A DNA stretch of 64,000 bases from Eledone cirrhosa (GCA_964016885.1 OZ024743.1:74338001-74402000), one strand, 5' to 3'; shown: positions 13,999 to 63,348, counted from the first letter of the stretch. A program made the numbers and translations. Notes: a model not told the origin generated them from the letters alone.

Positions 13999-14179
13999 CA
14001 ATAATAATAATAATAATAATAATAATAATAATAATAATAATAATAATAATAATAATAATAATAATAATAATAATAATAATAATAAATTTGAAGATCCTGT
14101 TAAAGGTGAAAGCAGCGATTCTTTGCTTAAACTTTAATCTGTTATTTTAATATATATATATATATATATATACACATCT

Positions 14180-17100
14180 ATAAAAAAAAAGGACCCCACG
14201 AAGAAACAGAAAATACCCAAGAGACGAATATTACTTCAGCATTAACTAAATTAATCGAAACCATTGAAACAGCAATGCTCCAAAAGCTGGAACAACCAGT
14301 AGAACCCAATCTACGAGATGTCCACTCAGTGAAAAACACCCTAATCAATATATGGACTCAACAGCTCACAGTCCGCAAATTCGCCTTTTGGAATCTCCTA
14401 AAAAATTATGGCAAGGCAGACATATGTGACAAGTGGCTAAACTCTACCCCAATCATCCTCCCCAAAAAGCTCCAAATAAAACCCATCCCAACTGAACCAG
14501 AAAACCAACAAAGGCTTAGGGAAAAGATGGCGTTAGAAAAATTTAAAATAGAAATAGAACTGCTGCGATTAAGAGCCAATTCCAACGAAGAAAAATTCAA
14601 GTCACTCGAAATCTCAAAGCACTCTGAAGGCCTACTCTACGAAAAGAACCTTAAAACTTTGGAAAGAAAACTGTGAGGATGAAGAACTAACATCCCTCCA
14701 GCGATGGGAAAAATCACACCAACACCACAATACTCTAACCCCAATGAGATAAATGACGATATCTCACACTTCTGTAGAAAATTACGTCTCACAGAGGAAT
14801 TCTTTGACATGGAGAATAACGACCAATCAATTGTACGGAATAAAAGCAGCTACAACACCCAAAAAGGTAGAAACAGAGTTCTGGACAAATTTTGTGACCA
14901 CATAGCTACTTTCCCATACCATGAACTACCGCAACCTAAACCCAAACCCAACACGAGTCGAAGGGAATGGGAGATTAACAATGAACTAAAAAACAATACG
15001 GACATTTTCATTAAGGAAGCGGATAAGGGAAGTTCTGTTGTCATTATGGATGCTGAAAAATATAAAAATTCTATGTTCTCTCTCTTACAAAATACTAATT
15101 ACTATGAAAGAGTAAAAAACTACCAGCAATCAAAAACAATGACCAGATTAAACACACTGATTTGTCGATACCAGAAAGACTTAACTAAAAAGGAACGCGA
15201 TTATTTAACACATTTTGAATACAAAACCAGCAACCTTTACGGACTTCCGAAGATCCACAAGTGTAAAATAATTAACGATGCCTGTAAACAATCCACCTCA
15301 GCCTGCGTGAACTCACAATACCCCACAGACCTTAAATTAAGACCAATTGTAGCGGGCCCACAATGTGAAACACACTGACTAAGCAACTTTATCGACATAC
15401 TATTAAAACCAATTCTCAAACACATACCAAGCCTTGTAAGAGACGATCTGGAACTCTTAAACCACCTCCCGAAACATGTCAACAACGACACTATTATTGT
15501 GTCTTTCGATGTAGTGAATCTCTACACAACGATCCCACACCAATACGAACTAGAAGCAATAGGATTCTGGCTAGAGAAATATTCCAATGAGATACATGGC
15601 AGAATAGAAAAATGCTTCATCACCGAGGGATTAAAATTCATCTTACAGAACAACTTTTTTGATTTCGATGGCAGTACTTACAAGCAAATATCGGGGACTG
15701 CGATGGGTACAAAAGCCGCTCCAACTTATGCCAACTTAGTCATGGCATACTTAGAAGTACAGATATATGAACAGTCCAAATCAAAATACGGATTGAACTT
15801 CCACAAATATTTATCAGAGAATTGGAAACGCTACTTGGATGATTGTCTCATTATTTGGTCCCACACACTCGACCAACTGAAGGATTTCAAAAACTTAATA
15901 AACGGCATCAATAACTACATCCAATTTACAATGGAATACAGCCAAGATCAACTCCCATTTCTGGACATCTTAATCTTAAAAAAAGACACAAATATTGAAA
16001 CTGACATACACTACAAACCAACAGATTCCAAACAATACCTGCTATTCACCTCCAACCATCCAAAGCACACGAAGACAAACATTCCTTTTAACGTAGCAAA
16101 AAGAATTTGCACAATTGTCTCCAATTATGAAACGCGAAATAAAAGACTTCAAGAATTAAAGGAAATTCTACTCGAAAGAGAGTATCCACCATTACTAATA
16201 AATAATGGAATAGAAAGGGCTAAAGCGATAGGCATTGATGAATTACGAAAACAGAAACAAATTCAAGGTACGTCCAATATTCTATCATATATCTCAACAC
16301 ACAACGCAAGAAATGCGGAAGCTTACAACACTATTCACAAGAACATCCCACTACTAAAACAAGACCCAAGAATGAAAAAAGCCCTTGAAACACACAAAAT
16401 AATCAAAAGCAAAAGACATCCGAAATCACTGAAAACATTACACACCAATGCCAAATTACCTACAACAAACCCACAACCAACTGTCAAAAAATGTGGTCGC
16501 TCTAATTGTGGAACCTGCACTCTCCTCATTGAAGGCAACACGTATACATTTAAATCAGGACAAAATTTTGCTGTAAAAAATCACTTCACTTGCTCATCAA
16601 AAAATCTAGCCATTAAATGTAAAGGATGCAATGAAGATTATATAGGACAAACTAAACTCACACTCAGAAACATAATGACAGTTCATCGCCAACAATTACG
16701 AGATCCAACCACGAGACAGATACCACTAAGCGTACATCGAGACATATCCGCAAGTAATAAGACACCCAAATTCCAAGTCTTCCCATTTTACCTTTGCGTT
16801 AACAATACAACAGAACAAATACGAATAAATAAGGAAAATATGTTTATTCAAAAATATAGACCAGCATTAAATATGGTTTACTATACATTATGTCAACACC
16901 ATAACATGCTAACCATCCAAACAGACACATACACACACACATAACACCTGCTACTTTAGAAAATAAAACCCGAACTAAATAAACCTTAACATACGTTTGC
17001 GCTGACAATACAACAGAAAAAATACGAATAAGTAAGGAAAATATGTTCATTCAAAAATATTCCTACTAAAGGAATAATTTTCCTACACACACACACATAC

Positions 17101-18085
17101 ACATACACACAATATATATATATTCTCTTCATCTTAACATGCTAACCATACTCCCACACACACATAACACCCATACACACATATAACAACCCCCAACCAC
17201 AGACACATACAACTCCCTCCCCCATTTCTACTAATAGAATCACTTTCCTACACACATATATACACACACAAAATATATATATTCTCTCCATTTTAACATA
17301 CTCCCACACACACACACATATCACCCATATACATACACACACAACTCCCTCCCCCATTTCTACTGATAGAATCATCTTCCAATACACACACACACACAAG
17401 CACACAAATAAACATACATATCTTTACTTTCTTTATTTCAATAGAAAATTTGAATTCTGACACCCCAGCGAACTAACCATATTCACTGAACCAGAACAAT
17501 TCTCCCATCCCATTTCTCTTGACCATTATCTTTTGCTTGTCATAAAATTCTCTAAAGAGGCTACAGAATAGATTTCCAAATAAGGGCGCCAAATTTAATG
17601 AAAACTTGTTCACGTGACAACCATAATTTCATTTATAACCAATCAAATTACCTTTATTAAAAAAAAAGCCTTTGTGAGCCCCTTTTTAAGTAAAAAGAAA
17701 TTCAAACACTCATATATGAAAAAAACAACCTGAGCCCCTGAAGAACTTTGTAGCAACCTGAAGAACTTTGTAACGCGAACTGGCGCGAAATTTATTATAA
17801 TTATTGACCAACCAATCAAATTACTTTTCTAAAAACCTGGCGTTTCGAGCCACTTTTTTCCATATAAAACAAGTAACATTCAAAGACCAACCAGATGTGA
17901 GAAAAACCACATTTGAAAAGCAGAAGAACTGCGAAACCGGTAAAGGAACCAAATAAATATATATATTTTTTTTAAAAATAAGACTCCTGTTGCATTTTCG
18001 ATTTCAGCTTCTTTTCTTTATACTTTCACTCGTGTATACACCTCGGTTATTCTTCATTTTGTAAAAAAAAACCTCACTTTCTAAT
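14180..18085 (+). mobile_element. Penelope-like retroelement, decayed, with 3' pseudo-LTR
   Basis: Contains an RT plus GIY-YIG ORF and is flanked by (TA)n. The 3' region 17880-18085 recurs on the minus strand at 24040-24101 and 24375-24527. Confidence 0.88.
14275..16944 (+). pseudogene. Penelope RT / GIY-YIG endonuclease ORF, disrupted
   Basis: Motifs IKEADKG, YGLPKIHK, LRPIV, SFDVVNLYT, GTAMGTK, RYLDD, LPFLDI and C..C..C...IKCKGCNEDYIGQT. There is an in-frame TGA at 15376-15378 between two same-frame ORFs, plus a disruption near 14680. Confidence 0.9.
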
Positions 18086-18673
18086 ATATATATATATATA
18101 TATATATATATATATATATATATATATATATATATATATATATATATATATATATATATATACACACATGTAAGTTTTGTAAGTTTTCTCAAGCAATCCG
18201 TTCCTAACAAAAACAATTAACAATGAAAAAAATATAAAATATATAAAAATATAACAAGTTAAATTCCCGAATAGTGGGGAGAACCACCCAGGTACGACTT
18301 AGAGACCCCACCAATCCTGAATCACCCGACGCTTTGAGTAGCCCTCCCCCACTCTAGGAATTCAGTGAGTTTTCACTTTGTAGGCTGTGTGGTGTGAAAG
18401 ATGAAACAATAAACCACTTCATTAGTGAACGTAAGATGCTTGCTCAGAACGAGTACAGGAGAAAATACAACAACATTGGTTCATTAGAATCTCTGTCATA
18501 AGTATATATATATATATATATATATATATATTGTTATACTTTGGGAGGGTCATGTTGCCAATACGAAACACACGCACCAGTGTTTCACTTCAATTTATTA
18601 TAAATTAAATTTATAAATTTATAAATTTCCGGTTGGTTGGTTGGTTCCACAACCAGACGATTGTTCATATATT

Positions 18674-18716
18674 GTCAAAGTTCTTTCGTCACACATTCTG
18701 TGACCTCTTCAGTGAC
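18674..18716 (-). ncRNA. Minimal type I hammerhead ribozyme in pLTR (sense to the GIY-YIG ORF)
   Basis: gtca-CTGAAGA-g-gtcaca(gaatg)tgtgac-GAA-AGAACT-T-tgac. Confidence 0.75.
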
Positions 18717-61818: not shown

Positions 61819-62694
61819 AATATGGTTTTATAAATATAGTTTCCATTTATTAATATATTGTATATATATATATATATATATATATATATATATATATATA
61901 TATATATATATATATATATATATATGTGTGTGTGTGTGTGTGTGTGTGTGTGTGTGTGTGTATTTATATATATATATAGGGATAGAGAGATTTTTATATA
62001 CTTATACATACATATACATATAAATATGTTTATACACATCTACACACACACACACATATATATATACACAAATATACATATATGTATGTATATATATATG
62101 CGTCTGTATGTATGTATGTGTGTGTGTACATATGTATAGCGATGAAATACCAATGAAGGTTGGAAGATCACTGATGAAGGACTAACTTTATTCATATATA
62201 TATATGTGTATATATACATATTTATATGTATATGTGTGTATAAGTATATAAAAATCTCTCTCCCTATATATATATATAACTACTCCTTTATTGTTGAGTT
62301 GCTGTAGACAGGTTTCATGGGTGCTATTTCTAGCGTCATTACGAACCTATCATATTGTCCTTGATATACAAATATTCATTTAGGGGTCGCACTACACATG
62401 CTTGTGCCTAGGCGCACCAGGCTGTTTCGGTAGGTATAAGGATGTATATTATTTTCTACTACAAAAGAATCCCGCTGACGAAGGAATATTCTTCCAATGT
62501 TGTCTTTATTTAGATAATTGATGTTGGTTCTTGTTTCCAGAAACTGCAATTGAATGTGAAAGAAACTCTCTTGTGTTAGTTTGTTAGGATTCACAGGGGA
62601 ACCGCCATTCGCTTCAAGAACATTATGTGTGTCCGTTCCCTTTACGCTTCAATTTAGGATTACCTCCTAATTGTAACCTTATTATGTGGAAGAA

Positions 62695-62763
62695 GCTGTC
62701 TGATGAGATCATGCCACTAGGTACACGCGGAAACACTATCGTCATCGAAATATGTATCACGGC
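62695..62763 (+). ncRNA. Minimal type I hammerhead ribozyme (family H)
   Basis: gctgt-CTGATGA-gat...atc-GAA-ATATGTAT-C-acggc. Confidence 0.72.
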
Positions 62764-63312
62764 CTTATCAGTAAAGGACTTTAAGATCTAAAACTTTGTA
62801 TTTCCTTATTCTCTCTCTCACTCACTCACTCACTCCCTCTCTCTCTCTATATATATATATATATTGTACGCTGAGATGCAACCGGTCCTAGCATTGATGC
62901 ATATGCTGGGTCCGTCAACTCCTTATTATATATATTTATATATATGTATATATATATATATATATATATATATATATATATATATATATATATATATATA
63001 TATATATATATATATACATATATATATATATATACATATATATATATATATACATATATATATATATATATATACATATATATATATATATATATATATA
63101 TATATATACATATATATATATATGTGTGTGTGTGTGTGTGTGTGTGTGTGTGTGTGTGTGTGTGTGTGTGTGTGTGTGTGTGTGTGTGTGTGTGTGTGTG
63201 TGTGTGTGTGTGTGTGTGTATGTATGTAAAAGGTAAACAGAGATAACAACACAATCACTACAGTATATGGAAGGTATATATTAGGTTAACGCTTGATATA
63301 GCAGGAAGAGAG

Positions 63313-63348
63313 TCTTAACGTTTCGGACACTGGTCCTTCACCAGAAGA
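63313..63348 (-). ncRNA. Hammerhead-like motif with A6G core change (family I)
   Basis: tctt-CTGGTGA-a-ggac(cagt)gtcc-GAA-ACGT-T-aaga. A more decayed copy lies at about 47730-47765 (-). Confidence 0.5.

What the first reader, a model, noticed from the sequence alone, without database searches (positions are those of the whole stretch)
14088..63348. About ten distinct short hammerhead-ribozyme elements concentrated at (TA)n microsatellites
Seen: the short unique-looking spacers between TA tracts repeatedly fold into type I hammerheads with paired stems I-III and a NUH site. Examples are 18674-18716(-), 19479-19521(+), 24447-24479(-), 24813-24905(+), 36170-36220(+), 48581-48651(+), 53380-53420(-), 57737-57848(-), 61753-61818(+), 62695-62763(+) and 63313-63348(-). 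Most are unrelated outside the core. Many have a tiny palindromic stem III (ACCGGT, ATGCGCAT, ACTAGT, ACTACGTAGT). Two families are physically joined to Penelope GIY-YIG ORFs here. Established: Penelope-like pLTRs carry minimal hammerheads with palindromic stem III, thought to cleave as dimers. Inference: this genome hosts many non-autonomous, ribozyme-bearing, TA-targeting mini-Penelope or retrozyme-like families, at more than one ribozyme motif per 6 kb in this window. I am not aware of this being catalogued in cephalopods, but I cannot check that here.
Basis: partly seen in the sequence, partly recalled or inferred. Interest (0 to 1): 0.88.

Follow-up and report, generated by a model that had tools for sequence, protein, structure and literature searches.

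The report
Hammerhead-tipped Penelope ends in TA repeats
These are the ends of Penelope-type jumping genes inserted at TA repeats, each carrying a predicted self-cutting RNA; the kind is already known, but this cephalopod-like genome holds an estimated quarter of a million of them, and the short copies of two families likely record where the element's RNA starts.

Summary
The motifs are real: 10 intact-core type I hammerheads in the window against 0.13 in shuffles. Across 990 kb sampled elsewhere, only the C3-G8 and U3-A8 cores are clearly enriched among 16 combinations; about 2.5e5 motifs genome-wide, 66 of 87 with (TA)n within 200 nt 3' against 11.5% background. The reading 'many non-autonomous families' holds only in part. 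Of ten families, five are ends (pLTRs) of protein-coding Neptune- or Hydra-type Penelope-like elements (one via a 79% relative), two are tandem non-coding retrozyme-like units, three have no parent found. Each family ends at two fixed sites beside (TA)n, the published PLE tail. Nearly all of this is in print (PMC4209133, PMC8557442, which lists a TA-targeting Octopus Hydra family). New: the density, and 5' ends piling up 30 nt after a TATA box in two families, suggesting run-off copies of uncut RNA; a prospective test in a third family failed. No pile-up at the cleavage site; cleavage and expression untested. The scan noted retrozymes and promoter-like words on other DNA of this genome before.

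The parts
14173..18084 (+). Neptune-type PLE (family C), broken RT-GIY-YIG ORF 14131-16944, between (TA)11 and (TA)39
   Evidence: Pfam RVT_1 and GIY-YIG; DKG and CX4CxxC motifs; 150 scored relatives at 92-95% aa, many with 775-aa open frames
17863..17869 (+). TATA box of family C; the A 30 nt downstream (17893) is where short copies begin
   Evidence: start-site role inferred
17913..17946 (+). U3-A8 hammerhead of family C, 5' strand of stem I deleted in this copy
18583..19612 (.). Family B: inverted 253-bp arms around a GIY-YIG fragment (19003-19293 -); hammerheads 18674-18716 (-) and 19479-19521 (+)
   Evidence: RT-EN-hammerhead order in L057, L336, L354
24371..24526 (-). Short family C copy between TA tracts, U3-A8 hammerhead 24447-24479
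24707..25140 (+). Family D, part of a ~590-bp non-coding unit; U3-A8 hammerhead 24813-24905
   Evidence: tandem spacing 585-591 in 3 of 25 loci; no joined ORF in 58 copies
25943..26235 (+).
   Evidence: 389 pattern matches
36111..36304 (+). Family E fold-back copy; hammerhead 36170-36220 with U10.1-U11.1; junction at the first base of stem I
   Evidence: (1477 exact 32-mer matches)
48430..48776 (.). Family A inverted pair; hammerheads 48465-48535 (-) and 48581-48651 (+), short and long 3' end
   Evidence: long copies run into Hydra-type GIY-YIG and RT
53112..53745 (-). Family F, retrozyme-like ~430-490-bp unit with inverted arm; hammerhead 53379-53421; octamer, TATA-like and GGCAG words upstream
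   Evidence: arrays of 5 and 8 units; spacing 427-489 in most tandems; covariation; words
57684..57876 (-). Family G: end of an old Hydra-type PLE; hammerhead 57737-57848 with long stem II and U10.1-U11.1
   Evidence: 3 independent long copies reach a decayed GIY-YIG 620-730 nt upstream
61673..61860 (+). Family A2; hammerhead 61753-61818 with extended stem I
   Evidence: 79% relative lies directly before an intact RT ORF; extended stem I in fold
62591..62847 (+). Family H; hammerhead 62695-62763; parent not found
63222..63445 (-). Family I; hammerhead 63313-63348 (A6G in this copy); parent not found

Best explanation
The motifs are type I hammerhead sequences in the terminal repeats of Penelope-like elements that sit at (TA)n tracts: five of ten families are ends of protein-coding Neptune- or Hydra-type elements, two are tandem non-coding units that are likely copied by the same enzymes, and cleavage is predicted, not shown. 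Likely mechanism: the element's GIY-YIG endonuclease nicks a TA tract; the reverse transcriptase starts at one of two fixed sites 30-240 nt 3' of the ribozyme (shown as two 3' ends per family) and copies RNA that is still uncut, so almost every insertion, however short, includes the ribozyme; copying stops early, often with an inverted second arm. The ribozyme would act elsewhere in the cycle, on tandem transcripts, as a dimer or with protein help (established for related elements in vitro, inferred here). Single or inverted window copies are probably inactive by-products.
For: Motif excess 10 vs 0.13; 74 C3-G8 and 13 U3-A8 hits in 990 kb vs 0-2 and 1-3 in three shuffles, the other 14 combinations 0-6 vs 0-5. 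Two-sided stem I changes in F and E, covariation score above 500 of 500 shuffles. ORF links: C, B (8 loci without a TA gap besides the window), A and G, J, A2 relative. Two 3' ends beside TA: A ~35/125, C ~71/138, D ~72/236, H ~48/125, J ~45/158, A2 ~42/130, matching the tail signature of PMC11167929 (parts 1-2 of 4 read). TA within 200 nt 3' in 66 of 87 vs 11.5% of random positions and 12.7% of 134 copies of a control repeat. 5' ends within 5 nt of the cleavage site are rare: A 1 of 24, B 1 of 27 (locus edge), C 1 of 25, D 0 of 9, I 0 of 22, A2 1 of 47.
Against: No activity or expression data. Folding energies mostly do not beat shuffles. Covariation rests on one pair in F and three in E, i.e. 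few events, and rows were picked by a core pattern. Only 5 of 87 sampled motifs have an EN/RT hit within 1.5 kb upstream; three window families have no parent. Clade names rest on motifs, no tree was built. F has 3 of 17 distinct 5' ends within 5 nt of the cut site, so cut RNA may be copied there. 35 of 87 sampled motifs have an unpaired 10.1-11.1 position or a G-U there, 23 of them U-U.
Confidence: 0.85

Rival explanations
1. Most of the families are non-autonomous mini-Penelopes or retrozymes that spread as their own small (circular) RNAs.
For: F forms arrays of 5 and 8 units with a hammerhead in each and no ORF; D has tandem units in 3 of 25 loci; E, H, I show no joined endonuclease in 164, 32, 49 copies; 82 of 87 sampled motifs lack a nearby ORF.
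Against: Five of ten families, and J, reach coding sequence in their long copies; no tandem spacing in E (25 and 30 loci), H (25 loci) and only one 882-bp pair in I. Short copies are expected from truncation of autonomous elements (PMC4209133).
Confidence: 0.2
2. Short copies with a shared 5' end are run-off cDNAs that stop at the capped transcription start of the upstream pLTR, not random truncations.
For: C: 13 of 26 listed 5' ends lie at -73..-69 from the cut, 30 nt after a TATA box at -102. E: 22 of 29 copies taken in chromosome order lack native sequence before stem I, which starts 30 nt after a TATA box (-75 vs -45); 15 of 20 ends at exactly -45 have G in front where the template has C.
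Against: A prediction made beforehand for J (TATA at -144, start at stem I) failed: about 5 of 100 listed copies end within 17 nt of the core, none at stem I. A piles up at a palindrome with no TATA (8 of 22). Some C rows are two arms of one insertion; at least 6 of the 15 G letters can come from the inverted arm. No RNA data.
Confidence: 0.45
3. The motifs are hammerhead-shaped but no longer cut; they persist as a protein-binding or structural signal, or as passengers next to the RT start.
For: Insertions contain uncut sequence; weak stems II and U-U or A-A at 10.1-11.1 are common; published minimal PLE hammerheads cut poorly and 8 of 9 Xenopus dimers did not cut; hammerhead mutants did not impair insertion in vitro.
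Against: Core letters and the tertiary 3-8 pair are kept across 22 sequence clusters of two or more members; U10.1-U11.1 ribozymes are reported active (PMC3088659 passage); the anole PLE ribozyme cuts when its protein is present.
Confidence: 0.2
4. Chance matches in AT-rich, repeat-rich DNA.
For: Stems are short; a few singleton hits in the sample are at background level; 9 hits in one 32-bp satellite were artefacts and were dropped.
Against: 10 vs 0.13 in the window, 16 vs 0-1 and 0 in reversed DNA, core-pair specificity, hundreds to thousands of copies per family.
Confidence: 0.01

Closest known systems
Minimal type I hammerheads of metazoan PLEs (Cervera and de la Pena 2014, PMC4209133; parts 1-2 of 4 read, 2 of 3 supplementary files searched)
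   Same: Core, U3-A8 variant, palindromic helix III, mostly single motifs from truncated PLEs, inverted pairs 100-700 bp apart, many unrelated families per genome.
   Different: G10.1-C11.1 in only 29 of 87 sampled motifs, U-U in 23; stem II up to 90-100 nt; about 84 per Mb here against 2,000-9,000 per genome there (other descriptor, so not like for like); no cephalopod in the files searched.
Hydra and Neptune clades of EN+ PLEs (Craig et al. 2021, PMC8557442; passages and supplementary table rows read)
   Same: C-terminal GIY-YIG; DKT, RW[K/R] and CxCX5C (J, A2 relative; CxCX5C also in A) or DKG and CX4CxxC (C; linker also in B); hammerheads; (TA)n targets; tail and inverted pLTR. Hydra-1_Obim is listed for Octopus bimaculoides.
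   Different: One octopus Hydra family listed there; at least four Hydra-type and two Neptune-type families in this one window. No tree built here.
Animal non-LTR retrozymes (PMC7229834, passages; bioRxiv 10.64898/2026.07.22.740005, parts 1-3 of 5)
   Same: F and D: head-to-tail non-coding units of 430-590 bp with a type I hammerhead per unit, in a genome with active PLEs.
   Different: circRNA expression not shown here; F and D also show PLE-type inverted arms and TA-adjacent ends; no cephalopod named in the text read.
Poseidon_Ac internal RT initiation (Frangieh et al. 2024, PMC11167929; parts 1-2 of 4)
   Same: Two RT start sites 3' of the hammerhead, AT-rich targets, uncut RNA as template.
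   Different: Shown in vitro there, read from genomic ends here; a run-off 5' end at a TATA-defined start is not described in the parts read.

Membership tests
PLE type I minimal hammerhead | Core CUGANGA (or U3-A8) ... GAAA ... NUH in type I order | tested here: met
   63313 has A6G in this copy
PLE type I minimal hammerhead | Helices I and II with compensatory changes | tested here: met
   two-sided changes in stem I of F and E only, few events; none seen in stem II
PLE type I minimal hammerhead | Palindromic helix III | tested here: met
   7 of 11 listed sites; 51 of 87 sampled
PLE type I minimal hammerhead | G10.1-C11.1 pair, extra base after A9 | tested here: inconclusive
   G-C in 29 of 87, extra base in 13 of 87, U-U in 23 of 87; U-U is a reported active variant
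PLE type I minimal hammerhead | Self-cleavage (dimer or protein-assisted) | not testable with these tools
   no assay
EN+ PLE, Neptune type (C, B) | RT plus C-terminal GIY-YIG with CX2-5CxxC linker, DKG | tested here: met
   DKG seen in C only
EN+ PLE, Hydra type (J, A, A2, G) | DKT, RWK-like motif, CxCX5C linker, hammerhead, (TA)n target | tested here: met
   J; A2 relative: (DKT, RWR); A: (linker only); G decayed, by similarity to J
EN+ PLE, Neptune or Hydra clade | Placement in an RT phylogeny with reference PLEs | not tested
   no reference proteins fetched
EN+ PLE | Optional 3' tail (two ends) and inverted pLTR copies | tested here: met
Non-LTR retrozyme (F, D) | Tandem non-coding units with a type I hammerhead in each | tested here: met
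   F; D two-unit tandems in 3 of 25 loci
Non-LTR retrozyme (E, H, I) | Tandem non-coding units with a type I hammerhead in each | tested here: not met
   no tandem in E or H loci, one 882-bp pair in I
Non-LTR retrozyme | Monomeric linear and circular RNA | not testable with these tools
   no RNA run available for this organism

The most novel reading that the evidence does not exclude
This genome holds the densest hammerhead population on record (about one per 12 kb), and its short copies are run-off cDNAs of capped, uncut RNA: they map the transcription start of each element, family E being a TATA-driven RNA whose first base is the first base of the ribozyme. Insertion behind a (TA)n tract would hand such promoter-less copies a new TATA-like box, letting them re-enter the cycle as non-autonomous elements.
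Probability: 0.25. Interest if true: 0.68.

Novelty: new member of a known kind. Interest (0 to 1): 0.45.

Why it matters
The class is known, so the finding does not overturn anything. It matters as a resource: more than 20 hammerhead families in 1 Mb, some very young (J copies 99-100% alike, many intact C ORFs), with natural variants (U3-A8, U-U at 10.1-11.1, long stem II). Why PLEs keep a ribozyme that their insertions do not use is an open question (PMC8557442, PMC11167929); young autonomous families beside tandem non-coding units in one genome make both that question and the proposed PLE-driven copying of retrozymes testable. If the 5' pile-ups are transcription starts, the genome itself records promoter position and template state.

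Tried and rejected
Rfam scan: no hammerhead among the 150 of 392 matches listed, list filled by microsatellite hairpins. Reading 24447 and 24813 as decayed copies: rejected, the U3-A8 core is family-wide. Footprint of cleavage in DNA (copies starting at the cut): not found in autonomous families; E could not be scored because the reference ran into TA; G, H, J had 1-3 copies. TATA+30 start in J: predicted, not seen. ORFs downstream of three H copies: judged nested insertions, not shared between loci except two near-duplicates. Parents for E, H, I: not found in extended flanks. RNA: no RNA holder listed; run X6 looked like thin DNA when laid on a repeat-plus-exon stretch, so nothing is claimed on expression; F-like contigs occur in runs labelled as two other organisms, not followed. 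36455-36521 (-) and 28462-28522 (-) passed the U3-A8 descriptor; the first had no relative in 990 kb, the second was not checked; neither is counted. Literature searches that found no cephalopod hammerhead catalogue; none on cap or run-off signatures in PLEs. The Octopus vulgaris repeat paper (PMC13282606, passages) counts Penelope families and does not mention ribozymes. The supplement of PMC7229834, one file of PMC4209133 and the bioRxiv supplements could not be seen and may list cephalopods.
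Full report
Setting. The window lies on contig C4 of a 3.0-Gb genome. It holds an FMRFamide-family precursor at 31871-32668 (-) (Pfam FARP); that its peptides are cephalopod-like is recalled, not tested. 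The species was not determined.

1. The observation. All 11 coordinates show stem I, a CUGANGA-type core, stem II, GAAA, stem III, NUH and stem I'. A strict descriptor finds 10 hits in the window against 0.13 +- 0.34 in 30 shuffles. Two of those three (24447, 24813) read UUGANAA. This is not decay: the same core stands in nearly all copies printed from 30 loci of the young family behind 24447, and it swaps the tertiary C3-G8 pair for U3-A8, a variant reported from Schistosoma PLEs (PMC4209133). I tested all 16 combinations at positions 3 and 8 on 99 evenly spaced 10-kb stretches (990 kb): C-G 74 hits (shuffles 2, 0, 1), U-A 13 (3, 1, 3), U-G 6 (1, 4, 1), the rest 0-5 at background; 9 U-A rows from one 32-bp satellite were dropped. 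The 87 hits fall into 33 clusters, 22 with two or more members. Scaled, this is about 2.5e5 motifs (bootstrap 1.8-3.3e5), one per 12 kb; the window is about twice that. The sample is on large contigs at round coordinates, not strictly random. (TA)5 lies within 200 nt 3' of 66 of 87 motifs, 5' of 24 of 87, against 11.5% for random positions and 12.7% for 134 copies of an unrelated abundant repeat; other microsatellites lie that close to 6-10% of motifs. Against function: folding gives z below -2 for 2 of 11 sequences, and Rfam listed no hammerhead among 150 of 392 matches shown.

2. What each family is. C (24447, 17913): end of a Neptune-type RT-GIY-YIG element with many 775-aa open frames. B (18674, 19479): inverted arms round a GIY-YIG fragment; RT-EN-hammerhead order in 3 random loci. 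A (48465, 48581): long copies run through a 0.9-1.0-kb UTR into GIY-YIG and RT. G (57737): three long copies reach a decayed GIY-YIG. A2 (61753): no endonuclease upstream in 37 copies, but a 79% relative sits directly before an intact ORF. J (25958): copies 99-100% alike, RT-GIY-YIG ORF, pairs about 3 kb apart. J and the A2 relative carry DKT and RWR, J and A the CxCX5C linker, the marks Craig et al. give for Hydra. F (53380): non-coding unit, head-to-tail spacing mostly 427-489 bp, arrays of 5 and 8, with octamer, TATA-like and GGCAG words upstream, as earlier notes say of similar units. D (24813): 585-591-bp tandem in 3 of 25 loci, no joined ORF in 58 copies. E, H, I: no parent and almost no tandem. 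Loci from DNA searches are the best-scoring copies, so they lean to full-length matches.

Covariation. F: 37 distinct rows, 92% of cells paired, one stem I pair seen as G-U 13, U-G 13, A-U 5, U-A 2; score above all 500 shuffles. E group: 45 rows, three stem I pairs with two-sided changes; same result. These are few events, and rows were chosen by a core pattern.

3. How it likely works. Shown from sequence: each family has two 3' ends abutting TA (A about 35/125 nt after the motif, C 71/138, D 72/236, H 48/125; J 45/158; A2 42/130), and inverted second arms are common (9 of 27 A loci, 8 of 25 D, 9 of 30 F). Established for an anole PLE in vitro: two RT start sites 3' of the hammerhead, AT-rich nicking, uncut RNA as template, ribozyme active only with protein (PMC11167929). 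Inferred: the same here, which puts the ribozyme in nearly every insertion. In line with this, 5' ends do not gather at the cut site: within 5 nt in A 1 of 24, B 1 of 27, C 1 of 25, D 0 of 9, I 0 of 22, A2 1 of 47; F is the exception with 3 of 17 distinct. The window copies are single or inverted, so the dimer fold cannot form in cis and they are probably inactive.

5' ends do gather upstream. In C, 13 of 26 listed ends lie at -73..-69 (6 longer hits not listed; some rows are two arms of one insertion; post hoc P about 1e-9), 30 nt after a TATA box. In E, 22 of 29 copies in chromosome order stop at about the first base of stem I, again 30 nt after a TATA box, and 15 of 20 exact ends have G in front where the template has C, as copying of a cap would leave (recalled from LINE work); at least 6 of those G can come from the inverted arm. 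I then predicted the same for J and it failed: about 5 of 100 listed copies end within 17 nt of the core and none at stem I; ends further upstream were outside that view. A gathers at a palindrome without TATA (8 of 22), which fits the self-priming at palindromes proposed in PMC3846280 (passages). I rate run-off at the start site at 0.45 for C and E.

4. Known work. PMC4209133 (parts 1-2 of 4) already describes thousands of single minimal hammerheads per genome from truncated PLEs, inverted pairs, U3-A8 and palindromic helix III. PMC8557442 (passages; supplement rows) gives (TA)n targeting and hammerheads for Hydra and lists Hydra-1_Obim from Octopus bimaculoides. PMC7229834 (passages) reports about 5,000 in mussel and up to 120,000 in axolotl; the 2026 preprint (parts 1-3 of 5) derives retrozymes from PLE pLTRs, gives axolotl as 28 Gb, and found 1 of 9 dimers active. 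PMC3088659 (passages) reports U10.1-U11.1. PMC6962438 (passages) counts 235 Rfam hammerheads in giant squid. PMC2377424 (passages) describes a TATA-less internal promoter for Drosophila Penelope; PMC3846280 notes a putative TATA and Inr in a rotifer pLTR. A family-level hammerhead catalogue for a cephalopod was not found; three sets of supplements could not be seen.

5. Verdict. Real, and a new member of a known kind. It works like PLE pLTR hammerheads (five families, plus J) and animal retrozymes (two); three families are open. The density is roughly 20 times the axolotl figure per base, with the caveat of different descriptors. Interest 0.45; the run-off and promoter-regain reading has probability 0.25 and would deserve 0.68.

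Noticed in passing
window 62139-62190 (+): Short TA-flanked element with GAAA before CUGAUGA, the reversed strand order that earlier notes call a scrambled hammerhead of Naiad-type elements; 4 relatives in 990 kb.
   Followed up: partly
window 25384-25562 (+): Fold-back of the 3' half of another U3-A8 hammerhead family (complete in L065, L368); 73 blast hits in 990 kb, the rows shown lacking the CUGA strand, so truncated inside stem II.
   Followed up: partly
window 45004-45059 (+), 56961-57015 (+), 21275-21328 (+), 23201-23254 (-), 47639-47771 (-), 37669-37792 (+), 24039-24101 (-), 519-618 (+): Further damaged or truncated copies of families E, I, F, C and A.
   Followed up: partly
window 21536-22800: Two inverted copies of a TA-flanked element with a CUGAAGA word and an (AATTAA)n tail; no matching GAAA found by the descriptor.
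   Followed up: partly
window 31871-32668 (-): FMRFamide-related neuropeptide precursor exon (Pfam FARP); the repeats surround this gene.
   Followed up: no
window 5307-8718 and 10438-14085 (+): Two related RT plus restriction-like endonuclease LINE copies ending in (AAT)n, one nearly intact.
   Followed up: no
L205, L198, L189 (family G long copies): An (AAT)n poly-Asn tract lies in frame before the GIY-YIG linker and has itself been hit by other insertions, recalling the Asn-rich inserts of rotifer Penelopes.
   Followed up: no
window 33016-33147: Very abundant SINE-like repeat (134 copies in 990 kb) used as control; not TA-associated.
   Followed up: no
family B upstream of 19479: A YY1-type word (name recalled) 97 nt before the cut site, near where several short copies begin.
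   Followed up: no
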